Shown: positions 13,497 through 25,623 of the stretch, piece by piece
Numbering within the stretch: position 1 is the stretch's first letter
Layout: every line of letters starts with the position of its first letter
NCBI GenBank assembly: GCA_013626165.1
Contig: NDHX01000002.1
Coordinates: 64,639-128,638 of the forward strand
Length of the DNA: 64,000 nt
Origin: Candidatus Velesiimonas alkalicola
Lineage (GTDB): Bacteria > Omnitrophota > Gorgyraeia > Velesiimonadales > Velesiimonadaceae
Direction: 5' to 3'
Position numbers and translations under genes: made by a program
Notes under the pieces: model-generated
Database searches by the model: none
What the model was told of the DNA's origin: nothing
What the model saw: the letters and a program-made list of their open reading frames with translations, nothing else

Positions 13497-14000
13497 TTAG
13501 CGGCGTCTAAACCACCTTTTTATTCTTAACATTATGTCAGTTAATGTTCCGATTGGGCAAAATATCAAACACCAGAATCTATGGCTAAAAAATGAGAGTA
13601 CAAATATCAAACCGATAAGAAACCAAAAAATATAGCCACCAATAATAAATGAGAAGTATTCTCTGGTTGCCAATATAAATAAAAATACTAAACCAAAAAT
13701 GAAAAATCTGACCCAGTGGCCCCAGGAAGGTAGAATAAACTTTTTTATCTTTATCCCCCGTTGCAAATCCTGAATTGTCCCGCAAGGACACAAAGAAGAA
13801 CAATAAAACCTCCTTTTAAGATTCAATCCCAGCATCCCTAAAAGCAAGAACCACCTTAATCTTCCCCAGGGACATTTTAAATAGCAAATAGAACAGTATA
13901 GGTAAGGCAGACGGAAAGGACAAAATACGAAAGGATAAAAAAGAAGCGGCCCTAAAACTACTAACAAAATTATCTTCACAATTTTTATTTTGCTTATCAC
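13497..14000 (-). CDS. integral membrane 4Fe-4S-binding protein (NapH/Fer4_5-like CxxxCPxG repeats)
   Basis: Three CxxxCP(x)G motifs (CPWG, CPCGTIQD, CPIGTLTD) embedded in hydrophobic segments; 4-nt overlap with the amrS stop. Confidence 0.5.
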   Translation of the reverse strand: MISKIKIVKIILLVVLGPLLFYPFVFCPFRLPYLYCSICYLKCPWGRLRWFLLLGMLGLNLKRRFYCSSLCPCGTIQDLQRGIKIKKFILPSWGHWVRFFIFGLVFLFILATREYFSFIIGGYIFWFLIGLIFVLSFFSHRFWCLIFCPIGTLTDIMLRIKRWFRRR

Positions 14001-14003
14001 AAG

Positions 14004-15002
14004 TTACCTATTCCAGATGCCAGCAATTTTATATCCGCACAATCCGCACCCTCCATCTCTTATATTATTACTCAGAACTGTAAAATGAATCCGATGAATT
14101 AGTCTCTTTTGACATTGAGGGCAATAAGTACTATTACCTTTATGGCCAGGGAGATTACCGATATAGACATATTTTAGTCCTACGCTTTGAGCAATTTTTC
14201 TTGCCGCCTCCAAAGTCCTAACTGGTGTGGCTGGCAGATGCATTAGTCTATAAGCCGGGGAAAAGCGATTAAAATGTAAAGGGACATCCTCTCCTAAATT
14301 GTCTCTAATCCAGATACACATCTGTTCTATCTTATCCAGATCATCGTTCAGGGTTGGAATAATTAAATGGACAATCTCTAAATGCACACCCTCCTGCTTG
14401 ATAATTTTTAAGGTTTCCAATACAGGTTTCAATTGAGCCTGTAAAATTTCTTGATAAAATTTTTCATCAAAACCCTTAAGATCCACTGTAACCCCGTCCA
14501 TATATTTAAGGACTTGCCGCAAAGGTTCAGGAGATATTGAGCCATTAGTATGAAAAAGGTTCAAAAGTCCTTTCTTTTTAGCCAACCTTGCAACATCAAG
14601 CATATACTCGTAAAAAATTGTTGGTTCATTTATGCTGTGGGAGATAGACTTGCACCCCTTTCTTATTGCTTCCTCTACAACCTCTTCGGGAGAATAATTT
14701 TTGCTTCCTAGTTCTTCAGGACCCCGGGTGGTAATATGCCAGTTGTGGCAGTATTTGCAGCGGAAATTGCAAGAAGCGGTAAAAACACAGAGATTCTTGT
14801 GTCCGGGAAGCATATGATACATCGGCTCAAGTTCAATAGGGTCAATCTGAAGTCCCACGGGCCTGCCATAAACTAAACTGTACAATTTCCCTCCTTGATT
14901 TTCCCTTACCCGACAGAATCCACGCCCGCCTTCAGTAATAATACACTTCCGGAAACAAAGTCTACATTGGACCTTGTTATTATCTAATTTTTGATAAAAC
15001 AT
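14004..15002 (-). CDS. amrS: AmmeMemoRadiSam-system radical SAM enzyme (AmrS)
   Basis: CNFRCKYCHNW radical SAM motif; N-terminal CRLC..C Cys motif; strong resemblance to the AmrS family. The ORF track extends to 15161 (GTG start, no SD). The in-frame ATG at 15002 is preceded by AGGAGG and matches the family N-terminus (MFYQKLDNNKVQCRLC), so 15002 is taken as the start. Confidence 0.75.
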   Translation of the reverse strand: MFYQKLDNNKVQCRLCFRKCIITEGGRGFCRVRENQGGKLYSLVYGRPVGLQIDPIELEPMYHMLPGHKNLCVFTASCNFRCKYCHNWHITTRGPEELGSKNYSPEEVVEEAIRKGCKSISHSINEPTIFYEYMLDVARLAKKKGLLNLFHTNGSISPEPLRQVLKYMDGVTVDLKGFDEKFYQEILQAQLKPVLETLKIIKQEGVHLEIVHLIIPTLNDDLDKIEQMCIWIRDNLGEDVPLHFNRFSPAYRLMHLPATPVRTLEAARKIAQSVGLKYVYIGNLPGHKGNSTYCPQCQKRLIHRIHFTVLSNNIRDGGCGLCGYKIAGIWNR

Positions 15003-15144
15003 CGCCTCCTTCCCGCCTGCCAGCCTGTCCGCCGAAGCCTCTACGTAGGCGGGAGCAAAGCGGCGAACAAGCAGGCCCACCCCATTTATTTTTAAAGTGG
15101 CAGATATTAAACAAAACAAAAATATTATTAACCCTATTCTTCTC

Positions 15145-15243
15145 ATATTTAATACAAACACATTAAATTGCTTTACATAAAATAATCTCCCCTAACCCCT
15201 CTTTCGGGCACTCTCTGGATTAGGGGGAACAACGAAAGGGATG
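15145..15243 (-). repeat. dispersed GC-stem repeat element, copy C (~95 nt; second copy at 49003-49095)
   Basis: The reverse complement aligns at ~75% identity over ~95 nt with 49003-49095. Shared cores are GTGCCCGAAAGA(G/A)(G/A)GGTTAGGGG and TTTTATGTAAAG(C/T)AATTTAA..TTTGTATTAA. Confidence 0.55.
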
Positions 15244-15292
15244 ACTTTTCATTATTTATGTGAAACACAATAGGTTTATTTTATTGTTTTAA

Positions 15293-15420
15293 TATTGACC
15301 TTTGCATAAAGGGATAAATGGGGTCAACTCTATTTTCTTTTTTTAATAATACTACATTGGTTTTTTAGAGAAAATAGAGTTGACCCCATTTATCACATAT
15401 CATTATGCAAAGGTCAATAA
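15293..15420. repeat. ~128-bp imperfect palindrome (long hairpin element)
   Basis: Left arm TATTGACCTTTGCATAAAGGGATAAATGGGGTCAACTCTATTTTC. Right arm GAAAATAGAGTTGACCCCATTTATC...TTATGCAAAGGTCAATA. The outer 17-18 bp blocks are exact reverse complements. It abuts the stop of the 15422..15793 gene. Confidence 0.7.
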
Positions 15421-15421
15421 T

Positions 15422-15793
15422 TTAATACACATTTAAATCTTTTAAACGTTTATCAGATATTCCGAAATGATGGGCGATCTCATGCTGTATAACATGTTTT
15501 ATCTCCTTGTAAATATCTAATCCTTTTTTCTCACATTCCAGCTCAATATTTTGTTTATAAAGTATAATCTTATCGGGCATCACCATGCCATAATAATGAG
15601 TCCTGTCTTTCAAGGGAACACCGTAATAAAGTCCCAAGAGTCGACTTTGTGTGCCCGGCCTGAGTTTTTTTACCATGTCCACATTAAGATCTTCCTCAAT
15701 GGTGATATCTACATTTTGAAGTTTATCCTTGAATTTTTTCGGAAGCCCCTTCAAAACATCTGCAACCAATGATTCAAATTCCTTGCGAGTCAT
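15422..15793 (-). CDS. zincin-like metallopeptidase family protein (small HExxH protein, DUF1025-like)
   Basis: 123 aa; C-terminal HEIAHHFG zinc-binding motif. Confidence 0.6.
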   Translation of the reverse strand: MTRKEFESLVADVLKGLPKKFKDKLQNVDITIEEDLNVDMVKKLRPGTQSRLLGLYYGVPLKDRTHYYGMVMPDKIILYKQNIELECEKKGLDIYKEIKHVIQHEIAHHFGISDKRLKDLNVY

Positions 15794-16031
15794 ATCTTCG
15801 AGACCATTTATTATTGGCCCTCTATTCTAAAGTAATCATATAAACGGGCTCACTACTTATTAGTTATATGGACGGGTCAGGGAGTAGTTTCCCAACTTGT
15901 CATCCGTTGAGAAGCGAAGCGACAAAGGATCTCATGAGATCCTTCAGCCCCTCGTGCTTTAGGATAAGCCCTTCGGGAAAGAATAGAAAAACCCCGACTG
16001 CTTATTTATTTGACAGAGTATTATAATAATC

Positions 16032-17492
16032 TTATTCTCCAAAGACCTGAGTTGAATAGATGTAGAACTCCATATCTTTATCACGCCAGGCTCCTGGGGC
16101 AAGTCCGGCCTTGCGGCAGAGTTGTTCTAAAGTCTCTTTTCTATCCCATCCCTGCTCAAGGGGCACATGGGGGAGAAATGTTGCTCCCCGTCGGCCCTTT
16201 CGCATAATAATTCCATGCTTTCCAACTTCATATTGACTAACATTGTCTATCTTTACTAAGGGAGAAAGATACACCGAAAGTTCTATTTTAATATCTTCAA
16301 TCTCTTCTGGCCTCAATTTAGGAAATCGCCTGTCAAAAAAAGCAGCATCTATAGCAGTTTTTGCAACCTGTTTGTAAAGTGGCAGTTCCGATTCGTGTAC
16401 ACCGATACAACCCCGCAATTTTCCGTCTTTGTAAATAGTGACGAATATGCCCCGTCTTTCATTTAACACCGTATAATTTCCTGGTTCAATTTTTGGTGTT
16501 GCAGATGTTACTGCATACCCCTGAATGGCCTGACGGGCAAGTTTAAGAAGTATCTTTTGTGCCTCTTTACTTAAAGGTTCATAAGTCTCTATCCCTTGAG
16601 AGCCGGCCAAACTAGTTATGGCCATTGCCGCATAGCCCACTACCCGGGACTTGTCTCCAAAGGGCACATCCCCGGAGTTAGCATATTTTAACAGTTTGAC
16701 TTTGTTCGCACCCAACTTTTCGGCTACTAACATAGTAACTACTGTTGCTGCGCCACCACAGAGCTCATATTCATTTCTTTGCAAACCTTTAAAGAGCAGA
16801 TCACCATCTAATTTTTCCATCGCCGAAATTGTTTTTTTATCAATCTCTACTGCCTCCTGATAGGGATGGAAATGGGAAAGGTCAGTAGAAGCGATAAAGA
16901 GCACATTCCTGTCCTTGGTGTGTTTAAGAAGCGCATCGGCCAAAATTTTACAGGTCTGAAGGTTGCGCTCACCCATTATTATGGGCACAATTTTAAAATC
17001 TCCAAGCACTGTTTGTAAAAATGGTAGTTGTACCTCCAGGGAATGCTCCTTTTTATGCGCCTGAGGATGAAAACCTATTTTTTCATTTTCTTTAATTAGT
17101 TTTTTCACTAATGTTCTATCTACTGACACATCCCCTAAGGGAGTGCGATAGGCAGAGTAGTTTCCGATGGAAGCACCGGGAAACTTCATCCTATGGCTAT
17201 CCCCGATTAAAATAATGGTATCAAAATCTCTTCCTTCTAACTGTTTATAAGAATGTGCCGCCACCTGGCCTGAGAAGACAAAACCAGCGTGGGGAACAAC
17301 TAATGCAACCAACTCTCCGTCTAACTCTACCGGCTGGACTTGTTCTAAAAACCCTTTAACCATCCTCCTTAACTCTGGGACAGAAGCAGGATAAAAACTG
17401 CCTGCTACTGCTGGTTGCCGAACCTCTTCTGCTACTGCCCATTTAACCATACTAAAAACCAAAAGAGTAATTATAAGTATCCTTTCATTCAT
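16032..17492 (-). CDS. MEMO1-family (AmmeMemoSam B) + AMMECR1 fusion protein with N-terminal Sec signal peptide
   Basis: Signal peptide MNERILIITLLVFSMVKWAVA|EE with GGGGGAG SD before ATG; Memo motifs AGSFYP and VVPHAGFVFSG; C-terminal AMMECR1 domain (RGIFVTIYKDGKLRGCIG, HGIIM.KG.RGATFLP). Confidence 0.8.
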   Translation of the reverse strand: MNERILIITLLVFSMVKWAVAEEVRQPAVAGSFYPASVPELRRMVKGFLEQVQPVELDGELVALVVPHAGFVFSGQVAAHSYKQLEGRDFDTIILIGDSHRMKFPGASIGNYSAYRTPLGDVSVDRTLVKKLIKENEKIGFHPQAHKKEHSLEVQLPFLQTVLGDFKIVPIIMGERNLQTCKILADALLKHTKDRNVLFIASTDLSHFHPYQEAVEIDKKTISAMEKLDGDLLFKGLQRNEYELCGGAATVVTMLVAEKLGANKVKLLKYANSGDVPFGDKSRVVGYAAMAITSLAGSQGIETYEPLSKEAQKILLKLARQAIQGYAVTSATPKIEPGNYTVLNERRGIFVTIYKDGKLRGCIGVHESELPLYKQVAKTAIDAAFFDRRFPKLRPEEIEDIKIELSVYLSPLVKIDNVSQYEVGKHGIIMRKGRRGATFLPHVPLEQGWDRKETLEQLCRKAGLAPGAWRDKDMEFYIYSTQVFGE

Positions 17493-17506
17493 AATCTTGC
17501 TCCCCC

Positions 17507-17948
17507 CTAATATCTTCCCACTGGCATTATGTAAAGAGGCACTTCATCCTTTGCCCCGAGAATTTTCTTAACTGCTTCGTCATGGAAGGCACCGATTATC
17601 ACTGTGCCTAAACCCAATGCCTCTGCCTGCAGGTGAACATTTTGACCCGCACCTCCCACATCCATAGGGACATAGCGAACCTCGCCTCTTTTGCCATATC
17701 TTCTTGTAGTGCAAAAAATAGACCACAGTAAAGACTAAACTTACAGGAGCATTTGCTACCATCCTCTGCTCCAGAGCTGCCAACATTAACTGCTTGCAAA
17801 AATCATCTTCTTTTACGGAAACAATAATATGCTCTTGCCAGTTATAATGATAAATACCAGAGGGCAGATAGGTCTCTAACGGGTAAACCCGTTTGTTGCT
17901 TGGTAAACTATTGAGGGATTGAAATATCAAGTAAGCGAACCTCACCAA
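17507..17948 (-). pseudogene. SagB-type dehydrogenase / nitroreductase-fold gene remnant (N-terminally truncated and frameshifted)
   Basis: 5' part reads ...RVYPLETYLPSGIYHYNWQEH...APVSLVFTVVYF (ORF 17580..17948). The continuation YGKRGEVRYVPMDVGGAGQNVHLQAEALGLGTVIIGAFHDE...PVGRY* lies in another frame ending at TAG 17507-17509. The frame switch maps to an A6 run (17713-17718). The FMN-binding N-terminal ~80 aa (RRSxR block) is missing. Confidence 0.55.
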
Positions 17949-19362
17949 GGCTTGAAAGAGGCTTATCGAAAAACTCAGGGTTACCCACTACAAGTATGGT
18001 CAGTTTGTCCGGTTTTAGATGAGCCCGGGCAACCCTTAAAATATCATTTTTTGTTACCTCTTTTATACCCTCAATGAGCCTCTTTATATAATCAAGGGGA
18101 TACCCATAGTATTCATAACGCATAAGCCTTTCAATTATTTCATCTTTTGTATCAAACCAGAAGACAGCTGCATTTAAAATACTTTCTTTGCCGACTTTAA
18201 GTTCTTCATAACTTACTTCTTTCTGCCGTATTAGTTCAATCTCTCTTTTCATCAGAGTTATTGCCTCAATAGTGCGACCTAAAGAAGTCTGGGCAGTAGC
18301 AATAAACAACCCTGGATAATCAAACTCAGCCGTTTGCCATGCCCAAACCTCATAAGCGAGCCCCTCTTCTGTCCGCAGACGACGGCCAAATCTTGAATGC
18401 CAGCCTGCTCCTAATATTTTACTCAACACTATGGAAGCAAAATAATCAGGATGATCACGCCTTATACCTAAATGGCCCATTCTTATCGCAGACTGGGTGG
18501 CCTCTTTTCGGATAACTAAATTAAATGAGGCAATGGGCTCCTGCTCAATTATGGGCTTCTCAGGAAATTGAATCTCTCTTGGTTCCCAATCTCCGAATAT
18601 ACTTTCTACCTTTTTAAGCATCTCTTCGCTCTCAAAATCTCCCCACAAACCCAGAACAATATTGTTAGGATGAAAAAAATTATTATAAAATAACACTAAA
18701 TCATTCCTGGTAATCTTCTCTATTGTTTTATACTCTACAATCCTCGCATAGGGATTATCTCTCCCATAAATAAGCCTTCTAAATTCTCTGTTGGCAAGCT
18801 CCTCTATATTGTCATTTCTGCGGGCAATTAATCCCCTTATTTTAATTTTGGCAAGTTCTATTTTAGCCTGGTCAAAGAGAGGGTTCCTTAAAATATCACC
18901 GAATACAGAGAAGATTTCATTGAAATTATCTTTAAGAGAAAAACCACAAACCCAACCCATATCTCTATCAGCGCCTGCCTCTATCTGAGCTCCTACCCTC
19001 TCAAGTTTCATATCTATCTCGTTTCCTGTCCTCTGTCCACCCCCTCCTGTTCTGATAACTTCAAATGTTATATCACAAAGTCCAGCCTTATCCTGGGGAT
19101 CCCAAATAGAGCCCGTCTTTATAAGAGCCTTGAAATGGATAAGGGGTAATGTTCTGTCCTCCATAAGATAAACAATCATTCCGTTTTTAAGCTCTCTTCT
19201 TGTATATTCCGGAACTTCAATAGGCTCTAATTCAACAAACTCCAATCTCTGAAAATCCCTTGTCGTATCTCTTTTTGGAAAGCAGCCTATCAGAAAAACA
19301 GGGACTAACAAAAAAATAATTCCTTTTTTAATCTTTTTAAGTTCTCTCTTCATCTTACTCAC
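17908..19362 (-). CDS. M16-family peptidase-like lipoprotein (probable non-catalytic partner subunit)
   Basis: Lipobox LIGC after N-terminal signal; M16 fold blocks; no HxxEH motif seen; 4-nt overlap with upstream M16 gene. Confidence 0.7.
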   Translation of the reverse strand: MSKMKRELKKIKKGIIFLLVPVFLIGCFPKRDTTRDFQRLEFVELEPIEVPEYTRRELKNGMIVYLMEDRTLPLIHFKALIKTGSIWDPQDKAGLCDITFEVIRTGGGGQRTGNEIDMKLERVGAQIEAGADRDMGWVCGFSLKDNFNEIFSVFGDILRNPLFDQAKIELAKIKIRGLIARRNDNIEELANREFRRLIYGRDNPYARIVEYKTIEKITRNDLVLFYNNFFHPNNIVLGLWGDFESEEMLKKVESIFGDWEPREIQFPEKPIIEQEPIASFNLVIRKEATQSAIRMGHLGIRRDHPDYFASIVLSKILGAGWHSRFGRRLRTEEGLAYEVWAWQTAEFDYPGLFIATAQTSLGRTIEAITLMKREIELIRQKEVSYEELKVGKESILNAAVFWFDTKDEIIERLMRYEYYGYPLDYIKRLIEGIKEVTKNDILRVARAHLKPDKLTILVVGNPEFFDKPLSSLGEVRLLDISIPQ

Positions 19363-20912
19363 AGTTTAGGCTCAACCATTCCCACAACTCTATTCTGTGA
19401 AAAAAAGTAGTTATTTACTACCCTCTTTATATCTTCTTCGCTCACTTTCTCAACCTTTTCTAATTCTTTAAACATATTCCTCCAGTCGCCTGTCACCGCT
19501 TCATACCAGGCAAGCTCCCTGGCTATCCCTCTTCTGGACTTAAGCCCTCTGATGAACTCGGTCCTCACCCTGGCCTTCGCTCCTTCTAATTCTGTGACAT
19601 TTACAAGTTCCTTCTTTAATCTCTCAATCTCCTCGTAAATTAACCTTTCCACTTCTTGGTTTGTATGGCCCTTTGATGCCATTCCCCACAAATAAAACAT
19701 CCCGGGATATTTTGGAGCCCAGGACCAAGAACCCACATCTATGGCAACCTTTTCTTTTTTTACGAGACGCTCATATAACCGAGAGGTTCTTCCCCCACCC
19801 AAGATCTCTGCAACTATCCTCAGCATTGGTCGGTCGGGATGAGTAGCCTTAAATGTATGATAGCCTATTATTAAAATTGGTTCTGCCTTTATTTCCACGG
19901 TAACTTTTCTTTCAGAAGCCTGAACCGGTTCAACTGTTATTACTGAAGGTGGTCTGTCTTTAACCGGAAATCTTCCAAAGTACTTCTCCATCTTGGGGAT
20001 AAGTCTTTCTGGCTCTACATCGCCCACAATGGCCACTATTATATTACAAGGGGTATAGTGTTTTTCATAAAAACTCCTTATCTTATCTCGTGTCATATTT
20101 TCAAGATCGCTCATGTGCCCAATTATAGGATTCCCGTAGGGATGTGCTTTATAAGCAATTGCCCTGAATTCCTCCCAGAGCCTTCCCCACGGTGAGTTGT
20201 CAACGAGCATCCTTCTCTCTTCTTTGACAACTTTCAATTCTTGATAAAACCCACGCGCTACTGAATTCAGTAACCGGTCAGACTCCAAGAGCGCCCACAA
20301 CTGGACCTTATTAGAAGGAAGCTCAACCCAGTAACAGGTAAAATCATAACTGATATAGGCACCAGGGCCAATTGCTCCAGCTCGCTCGAGAATCTGACCA
20401 AACTCATTAGTTCTGGTAAACCTATCTGCAGCAAGTCTAGCTTCTTCAAACTCTTCCTCAAGCCTCTGTGTATTTTCTCCTTCTGCTTTAGCCATTAACA
20501 ATTTTTTGTGAATACGGTCAAGTTTGGCCAAAGCCTTTTTCTCATCTTTCCAATTTTTGGTTCCAATAACCTGGGTTCCATTAAAGGCTAAATGCTCCAG
20601 TAGATGGGCTATCCCTGTCTCCCCTACTCTTTCATTTACCGCGCCAACATCCACATGCACTTGAAAGGAAACAACCGGAGCAGAATGGTCGGACAGAATT
20701 ATAAGTCGTATGCCATTTTTGAGCGTATGCTCGGTAACCCTTTCCTGGTAATCTTTATAAGCCAAGCAATGGTCTGCAAGAGCTATAAATATTATGAAAA
20801 CTACACAGATAAACCCTGTTAGAAATCTTTCGGCCTTAGCCATAACTTGTTTATTATAAGCAACAGGTTTCAATAATAATCCCATCATCTTCTCAGCCAC
20901 CAGAATCCCCAC
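19359..20912 (-). CDS. M16-family zinc peptidase (HxxEH, pitrilysin-like), exported
   Basis: HLLEHLAFNGT inverted zinc-binding motif; hydrophobic N-terminal segment; 517 aa. Confidence 0.8.
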   Translation of the reverse strand: MGILVAEKMMGLLLKPVAYNKQVMAKAERFLTGFICVVFIIFIALADHCLAYKDYQERVTEHTLKNGIRLIILSDHSAPVVSFQVHVDVGAVNERVGETGIAHLLEHLAFNGTQVIGTKNWKDEKKALAKLDRIHKKLLMAKAEGENTQRLEEEFEEARLAADRFTRTNEFGQILERAGAIGPGAYISYDFTCYWVELPSNKVQLWALLESDRLLNSVARGFYQELKVVKEERRMLVDNSPWGRLWEEFRAIAYKAHPYGNPIIGHMSDLENMTRDKIRSFYEKHYTPCNIIVAIVGDVEPERLIPKMEKYFGRFPVKDRPPSVITVEPVQASERKVTVEIKAEPILIIGYHTFKATHPDRPMLRIVAEILGGGRTSRLYERLVKKEKVAIDVGSWSWAPKYPGMFYLWGMASKGHTNQEVERLIYEEIERLKKELVNVTELEGAKARVRTEFIRGLKSRRGIARELAWYEAVTGDWRNMFKELEKVEKVSEEDIKRVVNNYFFSQNRVVGMVEPKL

Positions 20913-22018
20913 CCAGTATCAAGATTTGTAAGCCCCAGTTCTTTTGCACGGTCAACAACTTTTTTATATTCCTCATCGGTTATCCTCCTGGATATTTGCG
21001 GATAATCAAATGCTTTATATCTCGGGTTATACTGCGCCATAATATTGATATATGTGTCTTTTGGCAGATTTTCCGCTATCCACTCCATAATCTTTTCTGA
21101 ACCAGCAACATTATTTGGCATAACCAGATGGCGAATCATCAGCCCCCTGTACACAAGACCATCTTTTTCTGGTTTTGCCACACCGACCTGGCGGTGCATC
21201 TCAAGGATTGCTTCTTTTGTCACCTCCGGATAACTCTTTGCTCCGGCTGAATATTTTGCTGACATTTCACTATCCCAGTATTTGAAATCAGGCAGGTAAA
21301 TATCAACAATACCATCAAGAATCTTGATTATCTCAAGCGGTTCCCAGCCAGAAGTGTTGTATATAATTGGCAGCCGAAGTCCCCTGCTTGCGGCTATATC
21401 AAGTGCTTTAAGAATATGCGCAGAGTAATGTGTTGGGGTTACAAGATTTATATTATGAGCGCCCCTTTTTTGCAGTTGAAGCATCATATCAGCCAATTCC
21501 TCAATACTTTTTGCAAAGCCCCTGCCAAGATGACTTATTTCATAGTTCTGGCAAAATACACATCTTAAATTGCAATGGGTAAAAAAGATCGTCCCTGAAC
21601 CACCTCTGCCAACAAGTGGCCTTTCCTCGCCAAAATGCGCATGAAAGGATGAAACAAAAAGCCTTGTACCCGGGGCACGACAGAATCCGGTCCCACCCCT
21701 GAGACGATTGATGCCACATCTTCTCGGACAGAGTGAACATTTTTCCATCATTGCCCACAATTTTTCCGCCCGTTTTTTTAATTCACCTGATCTGTGAAGT
21801 TTTAAGTAAACAGGTTCAAAATCAGTGTCTATAGCAGCAAATTTTTTAACCACATTCCCCCCATCTTTCCCTTGGAAAGTTTGCCTGCCAAGGGCTTCTT
21901 GGCTGCCCATCTCCCTGTATCCGATATACAACGCTACAAAAACAACAACAATAAGCCCTAATACCATCTTTAAAAACAATTTATCTTTCATATTAAATCT
22001 CCCGAGTCGTTTATTCAT
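20885..22018 (-). CDS. PflX-like radical SAM protein (COG1313, PFL-activase homologue)
   Basis: CSLCPRRCGINR..GFC N-terminal Cys motif followed by CNLRCVFCQNYEISH radical SAM motif; N-terminal hydrophobic stretch may be spurious or an anchor. Confidence 0.7.
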   Translation of the reverse strand: MNKRLGRFNMKDKLFLKMVLGLIVVVFVALYIGYREMGSQEALGRQTFQGKDGGNVVKKFAAIDTDFEPVYLKLHRSGELKKRAEKLWAMMEKCSLCPRRCGINRLRGGTGFCRAPGTRLFVSSFHAHFGEERPLVGRGGSGTIFFTHCNLRCVFCQNYEISHLGRGFAKSIEELADMMLQLQKRGAHNINLVTPTHYSAHILKALDIAASRGLRLPIIYNTSGWEPLEIIKILDGIVDIYLPDFKYWDSEMSAKYSAGAKSYPEVTKEAILEMHRQVGVAKPEKDGLVYRGLMIRHLVMPNNVAGSEKIMEWIAENLPKDTYINIMAQYNPRYKAFDYPQISRRITDEEYKKVVDRAKELGLTNLDTGWGFWWLRR

Positions 22019-22059: not shown

Positions 22060-22461
22060 TTACAAAATTACTCTCTTTATGTCAATTTTTGTTTTAGCAA
22101 AATTTATTAAAAGCCCAATTCTCTTTTTGGCTGCCTTCAAATAAGACAAAATCTGGGCTTGATGAATGACATCAAATTCTTTAACTGTTTTATTTTCAAC
22201 GATTATCTCTCCTTCAACAAGAAGATCCAAACGGTGTTCACCGATGATATTCCCTTTATAAACCACTGATATTATTTTTTGCTTTTCAATTTTTAATCCC
22301 TGGTGTTCCAATTCATAAATCATCGCATTTTCATAAATACTTTCCAAAAATCCATTGCCAAGGGTCCTGTGAACCTCAATGGCGCATTTGATAATCTTAT
22401 CAGTTATCTCAGAAAAAGGATAATTATTTTCAGTGAATTCAGTGTTTTCAGTGGTTTTCAT
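22060..22461 (-). CDS. GxxExxY family protein
   Basis: GFLESIY motif in a 133-aa protein. Confidence 0.55.
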   Translation of the reverse strand: MKTTENTEFTENNYPFSEITDKIIKCAIEVHRTLGNGFLESIYENAMIYELEHQGLKIEKQKIISVVYKGNIIGEHRLDLLVEGEIIVENKTVKEFDVIHQAQILSYLKAAKKRIGLLINFAKTKIDIKRVIL

Positions 22462-22509: not shown

Positions 22510-23673
22510 TTAACAATATTCCATTGTAACCCGTTTCCCCTTCTCTCTTAATAATGATGCAATAGATTCAACAATCTTTCGTTTAATGACTAATTCAGAT
22601 GGCATATTGGGGTTTTGATGGGCAGGATTTATTGTCTGCCCAACAACGAAGTTGATGCTGTCTGCAGAAAGCAAGACCTTTGCCAGCCGTGAAGCACCAT
22701 CTCTCCTGTCCACCAGCTCATCACTAACAACCCCTCCCTTAATCTGTTCTAATGCACCAGAGAGAGTTAAAATGCCTTCAGTAACGAGATCTATCCCTTT
22801 AAGGATACCAGTAGGCGGTATCCCATTGCACATTGAGGATATATCTACGATTAGCTCCTCTTTCAATATTCTGGCAACGATATTGGTTGTAGAACCACCA
22901 CACACCACTTTTATACCATCAAAATTAACCAGTTCATTAACCACATTTTCATCATCTTTTACATCAAGCGGTGGACCGATCATCGCGATGAGTCGCTGGA
23001 ATAGACGAGAATTAATCACTACACAAGTGGCGTCATCCCCGGGCATCTCCTCATAAAAACTATTTGCTGTATCAAGAAGTGACCTGGTTAAGGAAGAAGC
23101 TGATGGTAAAGACCCTGCTTTCTCCTCTAAAAACTTCCCTACTCTCTCCCTTTGCCACCCCATACTCCATACCTTTCCCAGGCCAGCATGAACAATACCA
23201 TCACTTACTATTACCAGATAATCATTCCTATCCATAGGAAAATAAGATTCTGATATTTTTATCCCTCCTACTGGATACTCATTTCCTGAAATAGTGTTAA
23301 GTCTACCCTGATGGATAAAAAAAGGCTCTGGATTGCCATATTCAAACGCAACTACCTCTCCCCTGGAAGATATCCGTAGGATGGTAAATGTTGAATAAGC
23401 CAATTTTCGCACCTGACAGACGGGTAGGGTTTCAGCAAGGGTTTCTACCACTTCCTTCAAGTTAACCCCTTTTTCTAACATAGTTGCAATAATCCTGGTA
23501 GTCAGCGTTGCCAGAATTGATGCCTTGATGCCGCTACCCAATCCATCAGACATAACCACAATTGTTGAACCATCATCTACTCTTTTTACCATTACATTAT
23601 CGCCACAGACCTCTTCATTGTGTTTGGTTAGAGAACCATGAGATACCTCCACAAAAATCTCCCGGGGGTTCAT
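22510..23673 (-). CDS. PP2C/SpoIIE-type protein phosphatase (hydrogenase-associated)
   Basis: N-terminal PP2C-like block VCGDNVMV...VVMSDGLGSGIKAS; 4-nt overlap with hydS. Confidence 0.65.
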   Translation of the reverse strand: MNPREIFVEVSHGSLTKHNEEVCGDNVMVKRVDDGSTIVVMSDGLGSGIKASILATLTTRIIATMLEKGVNLKEVVETLAETLPVCQVRKLAYSTFTILRISSRGEVVAFEYGNPEPFFIHQGRLNTISGNEYPVGGIKISESYFPMDRNDYLVIVSDGIVHAGLGKVWSMGWQRERVGKFLEEKAGSLPSASSLTRSLLDTANSFYEEMPGDDATCVVINSRLFQRLIAMIGPPLDVKDDENVVNELVNFDGIKVVCGGSTTNIVARILKEELIVDISSMCNGIPPTGILKGIDLVTEGILTLSGALEQIKGGVVSDELVDRRDGASRLAKVLLSADSINFVVGQTINPAHQNPNMPSELVIKRKIVESIASLLREKGKRVTMEYC

Positions 23674-25361
23674 TTTCCCTCCATCAACTTTAACAGTTCA
23701 AGAAGAGATGCCTTGGTCTCAGCCGTGGTTTCCCCCAGGAGACCAGCGATCTCCTGAGCAACCCGCATCTGCTTGTTAATAACAGTATGAGCCCTGGAAA
23801 AACTTTCCTTGCGCCTCTCTTCTTCTTTAATATGTCTTTGCTGCTTGGTAATATCAATAAAAATACCTACGGCTATATTATGCTTAGGCACAAAGAGTAT
23901 CGTCTGTTGAAATATAAGCTCATACCCTGGATAGGAAACCTCACCGGAGATAACATTCTGCTCAGAGAAGGCTTTCCTGAAATAATTGTCATCAATTATC
24001 GTATTGAGTTTATTTCCAATCAACTTTCTCTTTTGACAGGAAAAGAGTTCTCTGGCTGCCGCGTTTATATCAAGGATGGTCATATCTTCTGCTACGACAA
24101 TCACTCCACTGGGTATTGATTCAGTAATTATCTCGCTCATAGACTCTGCTTTTGTCCGCATATAGGGGATACACATCTCTATCTCAGCCATACCCTGATA
24201 TACTGCAACCGCCTTTTCACGACAGGAATCATATCCGCAAGCACCACAGTTGGTTTCATCCTCAGGGGTAAATTTACCAATACTGGAAAGCAGTCCTCCA
24301 ATATCCTCATCCGTAGGAATGAGAGGAGTTATTCTGCGGTCAGCGTAGCTCCTGCTCAAATCTACTTCCTTAAACTTCTTGATCGGTATAGAGATACCCT
24401 CATTATCTTTTGAAAAACCGAGTATCTTCTGTCTGCGAGCAAGAAGAGAATATTCGGTTTTTATCCCGGGCCCATTGATACAACCCTCTGGACAGGCAAG
24501 CATCTCAATGATATTTACCTTTTGCGGAATATTCTTGCCAAAATCTTTTAGAAATTCTTTGCACTCCTCTACCCCTGAGATAACAAGCACCTCTCGCGAT
24601 AACATATCAGGATTTATGGAAGCTGTTTTTAATAGTCCTCCTTCCAGGGGAAAAAGTCTTGCCCATTTGGGACTTTCATTGGCAAATTCTTCCTCTGCCA
24701 AAGACCCAATATTGATATGTTCTTCTTCAAACCATTCTTTTAATTCCACAAAGGTTAGAACCCCATCAATTGCTCCGGGCACATCAACCATCTCTTTCTT
24801 TTTGGCGATACAGGGTCCAATAAATACAACTCGCATATCTTCGGTATGATCTGCCTTAAGCATTCTTCCATGGGCAATCATTGGTGAGACAACCCTGGCA
24901 AGATGAGGAATCAGTTCAGGATAATATATCTCTACCAGACCGACAATTGCCGGGCAAGAGCTTGTTAGAACAGGTTTTGGAAGAGTCTCAAGCATCTTAA
25001 TATGTTCTGTGGCAACCATCTCTGCTGCCCAGGCAGTCTCCTCTACCTCGGCAAAACCTAATTTATGCAGTGCAGAAACCATCTGCCCGGGATGCTTGAG
25101 ATCAAACAGTCCGGCAAAAGACGGGGCAAGACTGACTATGACTTTGAACTTAGAGGCAAGAAGTTCCTTTATCCTATTCAGACCATCCTCTATCTCCTTG
25201 GCATTATGGGGACAAACTGCCACACATTTGCCATCAAGGATGCACCGTTCTTCAACCACCTCGGCATGCTGTTTTTTAATTCTAATTGCCTTCAATGGAC
25301 AGCTTCTCACACACTTATAGCAATTCTCACAGTCTACTTTTTTTATGTTAATTATATTCAT
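23670..25361 (-). CDS. hydS: sensory [FeFe]-hydrogenase-like protein with C-terminal PAS domain (HydS type)
   Basis: Two N-terminal 4Fe-4S ferredoxin motifs; H-cluster motifs TSSCPA (variant L1), GPCIAKKKE (L2), EMLACPEGCINGPG (L3); extra Cys cluster CGACGYDSC; PAS-like GVIVVAEDMTILDINAAARELF. Confidence 0.75.
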   Translation of the reverse strand: MNIINIKKVDCENCYKCVRSCPLKAIRIKKQHAEVVEERCILDGKCVAVCPHNAKEIEDGLNRIKELLASKFKVIVSLAPSFAGLFDLKHPGQMVSALHKLGFAEVEETAWAAEMVATEHIKMLETLPKPVLTSSCPAIVGLVEIYYPELIPHLARVVSPMIAHGRMLKADHTEDMRVVFIGPCIAKKKEMVDVPGAIDGVLTFVELKEWFEEEHINIGSLAEEEFANESPKWARLFPLEGGLLKTASINPDMLSREVLVISGVEECKEFLKDFGKNIPQKVNIIEMLACPEGCINGPGIKTEYSLLARRQKILGFSKDNEGISIPIKKFKEVDLSRSYADRRITPLIPTDEDIGGLLSSIGKFTPEDETNCGACGYDSCREKAVAVYQGMAEIEMCIPYMRTKAESMSEIITESIPSGVIVVAEDMTILDINAAARELFSCQKRKLIGNKLNTIIDDNYFRKAFSEQNVISGEVSYPGYELIFQQTILFVPKHNIAVGIFIDITKQQRHIKEEERRKESFSRAHTVINKQMRVAQEIAGLLGETTAETKASLLELLKLMEGK

Positions 25362-25362
25362 A

Positions 25363-25617
25363 TTATTCCAATCTCCTCAAAACCTTATCCCTAAAGATCT
25401 GCTCACAGTTTTCTCTGGTTACCTCAGTAATAATCTCTTCCTCAATCATTACTGCAACCCCAGAAGAACAATTTTTCAGACAGAAAGCACCTTTTAGCTG
25501 GACTCTATCTTCCAAAGAAGATTCTTTTATCAGGAGAGAATATTTATCTGCAATTTCACCGCCACCCTTAAGATAGCACGAACTCCCTACACAGATATGC
25601 ACCGTGACCATTTTCAT
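25363..25617 (-). CDS. small thioredoxin-like [2Fe-2S] ferredoxin (NuoE/HydC-like)
   Basis: 84 aa; Cys spacing CVGSSCY...CLKNC. Confidence 0.6.
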   Translation of the reverse strand: MKMVTVHICVGSSCYLKGGGEIADKYSLLIKESSLEDRVQLKGAFCLKNCSSGVAVMIEEEIITEVTRENCEQIFRDKVLRRLE

Positions 25618-25623
25618 CCCTGT

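What the first reader, a model, noticed from the sequence alone, without database searches (positions are those of the whole stretch)
13497..22018. Exported variant of the AmmeMemoRadiSam system embedded in a peptidase / second radical-SAM cluster
The AMMECR1 + MEMO1 + AmrS trio is a widespread module of unknown function. Here Memo and AMMECR1 are fused into one 486-aa protein that carries a canonical Sec signal peptide. They sit in a same-strand run of the following genes: PflX-like radical SAM, HxxEH M16 peptidase, M16 lipoprotein partner, a decayed SagB-type dehydrogenase (stop 14 nt before the fusion ATG), and the Memo-AMMECR1 fusion. After a structured intergenic region come a zincin-like HExxH protein, then AmrS overlapping a CxxxCPxG iron-sulfur membrane protein. 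Two PFL-activase-type radical SAM enzymes, a protease pair and a dehydrogenase resemble a protein or peptide maturation pathway. An extracytoplasmic Memo/AMMECR1 is unexpected because AmrS is cytoplasmic.
Basis: partly seen in the sequence, partly recalled or inferred. Interest (0 to 1): 0.75.

Follow-up and report, generated by a model that had tools for sequence, protein, structure and literature searches.

The report
Exported Memo-AMMECR1 and radical SAM system
This locus holds a rearranged, partly decayed copy of a widespread bacterial variant of the enigmatic AMMECR1/Memo/radical-SAM trio in which both the Memo-AMMECR1 fusion and its iron-sulfur radical SAM partner carry export signals, which suggests that radical SAM chemistry may happen outside the cytoplasm.

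Summary
The gene calls are confirmed. 16032-17492 is a Memo+AMMECR1 fusion (TIGR04336 295 bits, TIGR04335 167 bits) with a signal peptide. 14004-15161 is AmrS (TIGR04337 351 bits). It is followed by a Fer4_5 membrane Fe-S protein. Upstream lie a frameshifted SagB-type remnant, an M16 pair and a second radical SAM gene.

The interpretation needs two corrections.

1. AmrS is probably not cytoplasmic. It has a 53-aa N-terminal hydrophobic extension. About 100 of its 120 closest homologues carry either canonical twin-arginine (RRxFLK) or Sec-like signals. Across species, signals on the fusion and on the adjacent AmrS co-vary (36 both, 4 neither, 3 discordant). The second radical SAM family is also signal-bearing (88/120 have a twin-arginine motif).

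2. There is no conserved peptide-maturation cluster. The M16 pair recurs in only one close relative. The zincin gene recurs in none. The SagB gene is dead here. No precursor ORF exists. The same-strand run spans about 55 kb of housekeeping genes.

The partner that is conserved in the exported variant is a roughly 750-aa spermidine-synthase-like membrane protein. It is absent from this window.

Verdict: a real, apparently undescribed extracytoplasmic variant of a known system. This window is an eroded example.

The parts
16032..17492 (-). Memo (AmrB) + AMMECR1 (AmrA) fusion, 486 aa. The predicted cleavable Sec signal peptide is residues 1-21 (window 17430-17492).
   Evidence: TIGR04336 scores 295 bits over residues 25-292. 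TIGR04335 scores 167 bits over residues 314-484. The predicted active-site residues are invariant across 29 homologues: H68, H100, E149/H150, D204, H207 and C245 in Memo, and G361-C362-x-G364 in AMMECR1. The signal is conserved in at least 101 of 119 homologues. The closest solved structures are PH0010 (1vaj) and human MEMO1 (3bcz).
14004..15161 (-). AmrS, the AmmeMemoRadiSam radical SAM enzyme. It has a 53-aa N-terminal extension (window 15003-15161) containing MRRIGLIIFLFCLISATLK.
   Evidence: TIGR04337 scores 351 bits, and the model begins at residue 54. The CNFRCKYC cluster motif is present. NCBI calls the same protein with the start MRRIGL (MBA2123586.1). 101 of 120 closest homologues carry a signal: 55 twin-arginine type and 46 RR-less hydrophobic. 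The closest solved structure is PFL-AE 3c8f, at only 46 bits.
13497..14000 (-). Small polytopic membrane protein with three CxxxCPxG motifs (Fer4_5, NapH-like), 3 nt downstream of AmrS. Proposed electron feed.
   Evidence: PF12801 scores 42.5 bits. TIGR02163 (NapH/MauN) scores only 18.7 bits against a cutoff of 213. Orthologues follow AmrS in L086 and follow the fusion in L084. One also lies beside the fusion in L023.
17507..17948 (-). Pseudogene remnant of a SagB-family nitroreductase. The intact gene sits directly upstream of the fusion in relatives.
   Evidence: There are two frames: 17580-17948 and 17507-17665. tblastn with the intact L084 protein covers its residues 90-235 only, so the N-terminal TM segment and the start of the domain are missing. 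The intact orthologue scores 136 bits on TIGR03605. The 5' end is overlapped by the end of the M16 gene.
20885..22018 (-). Second PFL-activase-like radical SAM enzyme (JGI: 'putative pyruvate formate lyase activating enzyme') with an N-terminal TM-like segment. It probably belongs to the extended exported system.
   Evidence: PF04055 scores 54 bits. No NCBIfam family is above its cutoff. There is no PDB relative. 88 of 120 closest homologues have a twin-arginine motif, typically TRRDFLKK. 18 are of the window type, MK(D/H)KLFLK plus a very hydrophobic helix. Homologues lie directly downstream of the spermidine-synthase-like membrane protein in all four loci read (L082, L088, L089, L090).
19359..20912 (-). 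M16 zinc peptidase with HLLEH and a signal peptide. A neighbour, not a conserved part of the system.
   Evidence: PF00675 and PF05193 match. It lies next to the fusion only in the window and in L085.
17908..19362 (-). M16 partner without HxxEH, a lipoprotein (lipobox LIGC). A neighbour, not a conserved part of the system.
   Evidence: PF05193 scores 115 bits. Same distribution as the other M16 gene.
15422..15793 (-). Zincin_1 (HEIAHH) small protein without a signal. It is inserted between the fusion and AmrS and is not linked to the system elsewhere.
   Evidence: PF06262 scores 85 bits. There is no homologue in any of the 85 related loci.
15269..15443 (.). Long hairpin between the zincin gene and AmrS. 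The perfect 26-nt arms are at 15313-15338 and 15369-15394.
   Evidence: the repeat finder. The fold has MFE -90.6 kcal/mol and z -10. It is unique in the window.

Best explanation
The window carries a rearranged and partly eroded copy of an extracytoplasmic variant of the AmmeMemoRadiSam system.

Proposed mechanism:
1. The Memo-AMMECR1 fusion is exported by Sec and its signal peptide is cleaved after AVA.
2. The radical SAM partner AmrS carries its own N-terminal export or anchor signal, so it is delivered to the same side of the membrane. In most other phyla this signal is a canonical twin-arginine peptide, the route used for proteins that fold and receive Fe-S clusters before export. In the window lineage, Omnitrophota and Planctomycetota it is an RR-less, much more hydrophobic Sec/anchor-type segment.
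3. Once there, AmrS uses SAM and an electron to make a 5'-deoxyadenosyl radical. AmrS is a relative of the protein-directed glycyl-radical activases. The radical acts on Memo-AMMECR1, or on a substrate held by it. This step is inferred.
4. The NapH-like Fer4_5 membrane protein encoded 3 nt downstream is proposed to pass electrons from the membrane or cytoplasm. This step is inferred.

The second radical SAM gene belongs to another signal-bearing family. That family, like exported AmrS, is genomically tied to a large spermidine-synthase-like membrane protein, which is missing from this window.

The M16 pair and the zincin gene are unrelated neighbours brought in by rearrangement. The same rearrangement probably truncated the SagB-type gene.
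For: Family membership:
- All three family models score far above their cutoffs.
- The Memo and AMMECR1 active-site residues are invariant.

The fusion is exported:
- At least 101 of 119 homologues have a signal, 17 of them with lipoboxes such as LAGC.
- 64 of 81 species-level loci have a signal-bearing fusion.

AmrS is exported or anchored:
- Ten AmrS proteins encoded in fusion loci score 347-387 bits on TIGR04337 and carry 47-100 aa extensions. One hits TIGR01409 above its cutoff.
- Of 120 closest AmrS homologues, 55 have RRx[FLIVM] motifs with h-region hydrophobicity 1.83, and 46 are RR-less with hydrophobicity 3.04. This is the bimodality expected of Tat versus Sec signals.
- RRxF[LIVM] is expected by chance in about 0.2% of such stretches.
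- Two 'short' database AmrS entries have in-frame upstream signal peptides, so their starts were mis-called.

The two proteins travel together:
- Signals on the fusion and on AmrS in the same locus co-vary: 36 both, 4 neither, 3 discordant (Fisher p 6e-4). Both states occur within Bacteroidota.
- A triple fusion AmrS-Memo-AMMECR1 without a signal exists (L074).

Extended system:
- The spermidine-synthase-like membrane protein lies next to 31 of 64 signal-bearing fusions and 0 of 17 signal-less fusions (p 1e-4).
- Close relatives add CcdA/DsbD_TM, YdjY and Fer4_5 genes.

What is not conserved:
- The M16 and zincin genes.
Against: - No localisation experiment exists.
- No signal-peptide predictor (SignalP or TatP) was available, so the calls rest on motif and hydrophobicity heuristics.
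- SAM is not known to be available outside the cytoplasm.
- No periplasmic Fe-S assembly is known. Sec-type signals on AmrS, as in the window lineage, are therefore hard to reconcile with an active exported enzyme.
- The window AmrS has RR but not the F-L-K part of the Tat motif (MRRIGLI).
- An internal Met54 preceded by GGAAGGAGG could be an alternative start giving a cytoplasmic form.
- AmrS is separated from the fusion by 870 nt containing an unrelated gene and a large hairpin.
- The usually linked spermidine-synthase-like gene, CcdA and YdjY are absent from the 64-kb window, and the SagB-type gene is dead. The system here may be decaying.
- Signal co-variation was not corrected for phylogeny.
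- The electron-feed role of Fer4_5 is inference only.
Confidence: 0.6

Rival explanations
1. The N-terminal hydrophobic segments are membrane anchors rather than export signals. At least in the window lineage, AmrS, the second radical SAM enzyme and the SagB-type protein stay on the cytoplasmic face, where SAM, reductant and Fe-S assembly are available. They would work at the membrane, and only Memo-AMMECR1 is truly exported.
For: - In the window lineage the RR motif is lost or atypical.
- The h-regions are long and very hydrophobic (hmax about 3.0-3.5), like TM helices.
- Radical SAM enzymes need SAM and low-potential electrons (established knowledge).
- The relatives' SagB-type flavoprotein also has such a helix.
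Against: - Positive charges lie on the N-terminal side of the helices (MRR..., MNKRLGRFNMKDK...). This predicts N-in/C-out topology.
- Orthologues in many phyla have canonical Tat motifs, which export the whole folded domain.
- Omnitrophota and Planctomycetota AmrS have AxA-type cleavage sites (VSA|D, IGA|D).
- Signals co-vary with those of the clearly exported fusion.
Confidence: 0.2
2. The run rSAM - M16 - M16 - SagB - Memo/AMMECR1 - zincin - AmrS - Fer4_5 is one RiPP-like or protein-maturation pathway. Two radical SAM enzymes, a dehydrogenase and proteases would process a peptide or protein substrate.
For: - All genes are co-directional and several are tightly spaced. The rSAM and M16 ORFs overlap, the two M16 ORFs overlap by 4 nt, and the SagB remnant ends 14 nt before the fusion.
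- SagB-family and M16 enzymes occur in known RiPP clusters (established knowledge).
- The M16 pair also lies next to the fusion in L085.
Against: - The M16 pair is absent from 80 species-level loci and from four of five close relatives.
- The zincin gene is absent from all of them.
- The second rSAM's conserved neighbour is the spermidine-synthase-like membrane protein, not M16.
- The SagB gene is truncated and frameshifted here and is also decayed in L082.
- No YcaO or cyclodehydratase was found among the neighbours annotated.
- There is no precursor-like small ORF.
- About 55 kb of the window, including SecA, TsaD and CtpA, is on the same strand.
Confidence: 0.1
3. The signals are start-codon artefacts. 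The true starts lie downstream (Met54 in AmrS, Met15 or later in the fusion), and the system is the ordinary cytoplasmic one.
For: - A strong Shine-Dalgarno-like GGAAGGAGG lies just before Met54 of AmrS.
- Gene callers chose the equivalent internal Met in P0130 and P0154.
Against: - The SD-like string is simply the codons of the conserved K-E-A motif.
- Many orthologues have no Met at that position, so they must start upstream (for example L009, L032).
- The hydrophobic, Tat and lipobox features are conserved in frame across phyla and in two unrelated protein families.
- The 'short' calls have intact in-frame signal peptides upstream.
Confidence: 0.05

Closest known systems
Canonical AmmeMemoRadiSam system (TIGR04335 AmrA/AMMECR1, TIGR04336 AmrB/Memo, TIGR04337 AmrS). 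The Memo-AMMECR1 fusions and the radical SAM linkage were noted by Balaji & Aravind 2007 (PMC2034487).
   Same: - All three families are present above their cutoffs.
- The Memo metal-site residues and the AMMECR1 RGCIG cysteine are conserved.
- AmrS has the CxxxCxxC motif and the N-terminal Cys motif.
- AmrS is adjacent to the fusion in about 45 of 80 related loci.
   Different: - Here, and in most close homologues, the fusion carries a Sec or lipoprotein signal, and AmrS carries a Tat or Sec-type signal.
- The variant is linked to a polytopic spermidine-synthase-like membrane protein. In the window's clade it is also linked to Fer4_5, CcdA/DsbD_TM, YdjY and a TM-anchored SagB-type nitroreductase.
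- The literature I could read proposes a cytoplasmic RNA-base modification role.
Pyruvate formate-lyase activating enzyme and other glycyl-radical activases (PDB 3c8f; TIGR02493/02494/02495)
   Same: - Closest characterised relatives of AmrS (46 bits to 3c8f; 71 bits to TIGR02493).
- These are small radical SAM enzymes that act on a protein partner.
   Different: - The scores are far below those families' cutoffs, so AmrS is not a member.
- Activases are cytoplasmic and have no signal.
- No glycyl-radical enzyme is encoded here.
Tat-exported Fe-S redox enzymes fed by NapH/NosR/MauN-type membrane Fe-S proteins (for example the periplasmic nitrate reductase accessory proteins NapG and NapH)
   Same: - A twin-arginine signal on an Fe-S protein (in orthologues).
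- An adjacent membrane protein with CxxxCP motifs.
- CcdA-type reductant export in relatives.
   Different: - The exported enzyme would be a radical SAM enzyme needing SAM.
- The Fer4_5 protein is only 167 aa and fails the NapH/MauN model (18.7 bits against a cutoff of 213).
RiPP clusters with a SagB-type dehydrogenase and M16 proteases (TOMM; PqqF/PqqL-type peptidases)
   Same: A SagB-family domain in relatives, an active/inactive M16 pair, and radical SAM enzymes.
   Different: - There is no cyclodehydratase and no precursor.
- The SagB gene is a pseudogene.
- The M16 linkage is not conserved.

Membership tests
AmmeMemoRadiSam system | Protein A: an AMMECR1-family domain above the TIGR04335 cutoff | tested here: met
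   166.8 bits against a cutoff of 99, over residues 314-484 of the fusion. PF01871 scores 171 bits.
AmmeMemoRadiSam system | Protein B: a Memo-family domain above the TIGR04336 cutoff | tested here: met
   294.9 bits against a cutoff of 26, over residues 25-292. PF01875 scores 233 bits.
AmmeMemoRadiSam system | A radical SAM enzyme of the AmrS family (TIGR04337) with a CxxxCxxC motif | tested here: met
   350.8 bits against a cutoff of 220. The CNFRCKYC motif is present in the sequence.
AmmeMemoRadiSam system | The three components are encoded together, and the linkage is conserved in relatives | tested here: met
   All three lie within 3.5 kb on one strand, although a Zincin_1 gene and two intergenic gaps of 238 and 260 nt interrupt them. 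AmrS lies next to the fusion in about 45 of 80 species-level loci.
Sec (SPase I) signal peptide on the fusion | An n-region, a hydrophobic h-region of about 10-15 aa, and small residues at -3/-1 | tested here: met
   The sequence is MNER / ILIITLLVFSMV / KWAVA|EE. This rests on a heuristic only, because SignalP was not available. The signal is conserved in at least 101 of 119 homologues, 17 of them with lipoboxes.
Twin-arginine (Tat) signal on AmrS | An S/T-R-R-x-F-L-K motif followed by a weakly hydrophobic h-region | tested here: inconclusive
   The window has MRRIGLIIFLFCLISA. RR is present, F-L-K is absent, and the h-region is very hydrophobic (3.3). The feature is met in orthologues: 19 loci have RRx[FL] motifs and 5 have KRxFLK. 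55 of 120 homologues have the motif. TIGR01409 scores 22.4 against a cutoff of 16.7 for L027.
Twin-arginine (Tat) signal on the second radical SAM family | An RRxFLK motif | tested here: not met
   The window protein has MKDKLFLK plus a TM-like helix, with the RR lost. 88 of 120 homologues have an RRx[FLIVM] motif, typically TRRDFLKK. TIGR01409 matches 13 of 58 N-termini at E<=0.05.
Glycyl-radical enzyme activase (PflA/NrdG) | A score above the TIGR02493/02494/02495 cutoffs | tested here: not met
   AmrS scores 71.4 against 231.75, 42.6 against 174, and 66.3 against 131. The second rSAM scores 30.7 against 131. They are related but not members.
NapH/MauN ferredoxin-type membrane protein | A score above the TIGR02163 cutoff | tested here: not met
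   18.7 bits against 213. Only the Fer4_5 CxxxCP repeats are shared (PF12801, 42.5 bits).
TOMM/RiPP maturation cluster | An intact SagB-type dehydrogenase | tested here: not met
   The window copy lacks about 89 N-terminal residues and is frameshifted. It scores 20.5 bits against a cutoff of 78.4.
TOMM/RiPP maturation cluster | A precursor peptide ORF and a cyclodehydratase nearby | tested here: not met
   There is no Cys/Gly-rich small ORF in 15162-16031. The 22.0-kb gap is only 41 nt. No YcaO-like domain was found among the genes annotated from 6 to 27 kb.
M16 pair as a component of the system | Conserved co-occurrence with Memo-AMMECR1 | tested here: not met
   Found only in the window and in L085, out of 86 loci.

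The most novel reading that the evidence does not exclude
Radical SAM chemistry takes place outside the cytoplasm. Two PFL-activase-like radical SAM families (AmrS and the PflX-like family) would be exported, by Tat in most phyla, to work with Sec-exported Memo-AMMECR1 on a cell-envelope substrate. A dedicated polytopic spermidine-synthase-like membrane protein would supply SAM or a SAM-derived group. NapH-like Fer4_5 proteins, CcdA, or in some lineages a CxxCH module fused to AmrS would supply electrons. This would relocate the long-unknown function of AMMECR1/Memo in bacteria from RNA modification to the envelope.
Probability: 0.35. Interest if true: 0.9.

Novelty: new variant of a known kind. 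Interest (0 to 1): 0.68.

Why it matters
AMMECR1 and MEMO1 are conserved from archaea to humans and are linked to disease, yet they have no established biochemical function. The bacterial three-gene system is the main handle on that function.

Most fused bacterial versions, their radical SAM partner and a second radical SAM family carry export signals that co-vary. A specific membrane protein accompanies only the exported form. Together these observations give concrete, testable predictions:
- localisation outside the cytoplasm;
- Tat dependence of the RR-type forms;
- direct interaction between AmrS and Memo-AMMECR1;
- an envelope substrate.

It would also challenge the working assumption that radical SAM enzymes act only in the cytoplasm, where SAM, reductants and Fe-S assembly are available. 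I found no description of this in the papers I could search. Burroughs et al. 2019 (J Biol Chem), the paper most likely to mention it, could not be read.

Tried and rejected
- Rfam on the whole window found only one tRNA, far from the locus.
- The small-ORF search in the gaps found nothing precursor-like.
- The 'structured' gap after the fusion is not significant.
- The promoter and terminator scan found no more sites than expected by chance.
- Literature searches for AmmeMemoRadiSam, AMMECR1 + radical SAM, 'periplasmic radical SAM' and radical SAM + Tat signal gave no description of exported forms.
- Burroughs et al. 2019 could not be retrieved by DOI, PMC id or PubMed id.
- The exact-match contig look-up for the 100%-identical fusion P0001 failed.
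- 'bacterium Unc6' is not in the taxonomy copy, and no paper was found for it.
- tblastn for remnants of the spermidine-synthase-like, YdjY and DsbD_TM genes in the window found nothing.
- Pfam on the CxxCH module gave only sub-threshold hints, so the haem-c reading is unproven.
- TIGR01409 and PF10518 are too short to confirm most Tat motifs at library-wide E-values.
- A crude TM count could not orient the spermidine-synthase-like protein.

Full report
**What is in the sequence**

All genes of the finding lie on the - strand.

| Coordinates | Call | Evidence |
|---|---|---|
| 16032-17492 | Memo + AMMECR1 fusion | TIGR04336 295 bits over residues 25-292; TIGR04335 167 bits over residues 314-484 |
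| 14004-15161 | AmrS | TIGR04337 351 bits against a cutoff of 220 |
| 13497-14000 | 167-aa membrane protein with three CxxxCPxG motifs | Fer4_5; far below the NapH/MauN cutoff |
| 15422-15793 | Zincin_1 protein | PF06262 |
| 19359-20912 | M16 peptidase, active | HLLEH motif, signal peptide |
| 17908-19362 | M16 peptidase, inactive | Lipobox LIGC |
| 20885-22018 | Radical SAM enzyme | No named family; JGI calls close homologues 'putative pyruvate formate lyase activating enzyme' |

The 'decayed SagB' is real. In close relatives an intact 236-241 aa gene sits directly upstream of the fusion (L081, L084). It scores 136 bits on the SagB model TIGR03605. In the window only its residues ~90-235 survive, in two frames. 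The 5' end is overlapped by the end of the M16 gene.

Three small corrections apply:
- AmrS and the Fer4_5 gene are 3 nt apart, not overlapping.
- The gap after the fusion is not significantly structured (z -1.6).
- The gap between the zincin gene and AmrS contains a ~130-nt hairpin with perfect 26-nt arms (z -10).

The window matches NCBI records of 'bacterium Unc6'. There the fusion is annotated as a hypothetical protein, and AmrS starts at MRRIGL.

**The fusion and its signal are common**

More than 7,900 homologues were found. JGI already names the fusions 'protein B/protein A'. Of the 119 closest full-length homologues, at least 101 have an N-terminal signal. Seventeen have lipoboxes such as LAGC. 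Several of the 'signal-less' entries look like mis-called starts of signal-bearing relatives. The Memo metal-site residues and the AMMECR1 G-C-x-G cysteine are invariant in a 29-sequence alignment. The exported fusion is therefore real, conserved and apparently catalytically intact. It is not rare.

**AmrS is not a plain cytoplasmic enzyme here**

The TIGR04337 model begins at residue 54 of the window protein. The preceding 53 residues contain MRRIGLIIFLFCLISATLK.

I fetched 80 loci from different species across many phyla, using the fusion as query. In them, AmrS genes next to signal-bearing fusions carry one of two kinds of N-terminus:
- Canonical twin-arginine motifs (LDRRSFLQCALASGAALG, ITRREFIKKAAVVGAG, NNRRDFIKKGMIG and others) in Acidobacteriota, Bacteroidota, Latescibacterota, Desulfobacterota and others.
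- Sec-like signal peptides with AxA sites (MRILFLVVSMLLTGTFAPVSA|D) in Omnitrophota and Planctomycetota.

Ten such proteins are bona fide AmrS (347-387 bits) with 47-100 aa extensions.

Of the 120 closest homologues of the window AmrS, 55 have an RRx[FLIVM] motif with a weakly hydrophobic h-region (median 1.83). Another 46 lack RR but have a strongly hydrophobic segment (median 3.04). This is the bimodality expected of Tat versus Sec targeting.

Two 'short' database entries (P0130, P0154) have intact in-frame signal peptides upstream of the called start. The callers were misled by the K-E-A-M codons, which read AAGGAGGCNATG. The same pseudo-Shine-Dalgarno string precedes Met54 in the window. 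Many orthologues have no Met at that position, so the long form must be the translated one.

**Signals co-vary**

In 43 loci both proteins could be scored:

| Fusion signal | AmrS signal | Loci |
|---|---|---|
| Yes | Yes | 36 |
| No | No | 4 |
| Discordant | Discordant | 3 |

Fisher's exact test gives p = 6e-4, not corrected for phylogeny. At least one discordant locus is probably an over-extended ORF. Both states occur within Bacteroidota.

One complete genome encodes a signal-less triple fusion AmrS-Memo-AMMECR1 (L074). These observations argue that the three domains must meet in one compartment. They also argue that in most fused bacterial versions that compartment is not the cytoplasm.

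**The wider 'cluster' is not conserved, but something else is**

Unbiased clustering of neighbours and targeted searches give this picture:
- The M16 pair lies next to the fusion only in the window and in one close relative (L085).
- Zincin_1 appears nowhere else.
- The same-strand run is uninformative, because about 55 kb of the window is co-directional, including SecA, TsaD and CtpA.

The best-conserved neighbour after AmrS is a 750-825 aa polytopic membrane protein with a central spermidine-synthase-like domain (NF037959/PRK03612-like). It lies next to 31 of 64 signal-bearing fusions and 0 of 17 signal-less ones (p = 1e-4).

The window's second radical SAM enzyme belongs to a family in which 88 of 120 close homologues have a twin-arginine motif, typically TRRDFLKK. 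Another 18, including the window protein, have MK(D/H)KLFLK followed by a very hydrophobic helix. In all four loci read, homologues lie directly downstream of that same spermidine-synthase-like gene (L082, L088, L089, L090).

Close relatives of the window show two arrangements:
- L084: AmrS paralogue - SpeE-like - YdjY - CcdA/DsbD_TM - AmrS - SagB-type (TM-anchored) - fusion - Fer4_5.
- L086: AmrS paralogue - SpeE-like - AmrS - Fer4_5.

The window lacks the SpeE-like, YdjY and DsbD_TM genes entirely, and its SagB-type gene is dead. It is therefore a rearranged, eroded example.

**How it most likely works**

Shown by sequence comparison:
- A Sec or lipoprotein signal on Memo-AMMECR1.
- Tat or Sec-type signals on AmrS and on the PflX-like enzyme.
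- Co-variation of the signals.
- Linkage to membrane redox proteins.

Inferred:
- AmrS is delivered with its clusters where a Tat signal is present. It meets Memo-AMMECR1 on the outer face of the membrane.
- Its closest characterised relatives are the glycyl-radical activases (PFL-AE 3c8f). Like them, it would perform a protein-directed radical step, possibly at the invariant RGCIG loop of AMMECR1. Balaji & Aravind suggested a radical on that cysteine (PMC2034487).
- Electrons would come through the Fer4_5 protein encoded 3 nt downstream. In other lineages they would come through CcdA, or through a conserved CxxCH...H insertion found in six Tat-type AmrS (unproven).

Unexplained:
- The source of SAM outside the cytoplasm. 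Co-export of bound SAM and supply through the SpeE-like membrane protein are both speculation.
- How Sec-routed AmrS, as in the window lineage, would acquire Fe-S clusters.

The main rival is therefore that, at least in RR-less lineages, the helices are anchors and the catalytic domains stay cytoplasmic.

**Novelty**

The trio and the fusion are known. In the literature available to me I found no description of the signal-bearing radical SAM partners, the co-variation, or the linkage to the SpeE-like membrane protein. One key paper (Burroughs et al. 2019) could not be read.

I rate the finding a new variant of a known kind. Interest is fairly high because of the implication of extracytoplasmic radical SAM chemistry.

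Noticed in passing
window 15269-15443: A ~130-nt hairpin with perfect 26-nt arms (15313-15338 and 15369-15394) between the zincin gene and AmrS. MFE is -90.6 kcal/mol and z is -10. It is unique in the window. It could be a terminator, an insulator or a MITE-like insertion scar.
   Followed up: partly
window 15000-15013 (AmrS Met54): The conserved K-E-A-M codons read GGAAGGAGGCGATG, a pseudo-Shine-Dalgarno plus ATG at the start of the catalytic domain. Gene callers chose the equivalent internal start in P0130 (L086) and P0154 (L087), which hides the signal peptides in databases. A dual-start, dual-localisation reading is not excluded.
   Followed up: partly
L007, L035, L060, L084, L086-L090 and others (not in the window): A 750-825 aa membrane protein with about 7 TM helices, a central spermidine-synthase-like domain and about 6 more TM helices. 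It is the most conserved neighbour of exported Memo-AMMECR1 (31/64 against 0/17 signal-less loci). It lies directly upstream of all four PflX-like rSAM homologues examined.
   Followed up: partly
L029, L033, L049, L060, L063, L069 (AmrS N-termini): Six Tat-type AmrS from different phyla share an inserted module, AP.ARYW.S...C..CH...H, before the first Cys cluster. It may be a haem-c site. Pfam gives only sub-threshold cytochrome-like hints.
   Followed up: partly
L074 8984-11389: A single 801-aa ORF fuses AmrS, Memo and AMMECR1, without any signal, in a complete 2.95-Mb MAG chromosome.
   Followed up: no
L001 2623-5840: Two tandem Memo-AMMECR1 fusion genes sit side by side.
   Followed up: no
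window 22510-27426: A SpoIIE-type phosphatase (22510-23673) lies next to a [FeFe]-hydrogenase-like protein with a PAS domain (23670-25361), a thioredoxin-like 2Fe-2S protein and a NuoF-like protein. This looks like a sensory hydrogenase module and suggests an anaerobe.
   Followed up: no
window ~3600-57500: Almost every gene over about 55 kb is on the - strand, with steadily negative GC skew. Co-directionality cannot be used as operon evidence in this genome.
   Followed up: partly
window 22060-22461: A GxxExxY / PD-(D/E)XK_3 gene sits where relatives have the spermidine-synthase-like gene upstream of the PflX-like rSAM. It may mark the rearrangement point.
   Followed up: no
L027 (record labelled Candidatus Altiarchaeota archaeon): This locus has a bacterial-style lipobox fusion and a Tat-signal AmrS (TIGR01409 above its cutoff) in a MAG labelled archaeal. 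This may be mis-binning or horizontal transfer.
   Followed up: no
L081, L084, L086, L087: The window's clade usually has two AmrS paralogues, both with N-terminal hydrophobic signals, flanking the spermidine-synthase-like gene. The window has only one AmrS plus the PflX-like enzyme.
   Followed up: partly
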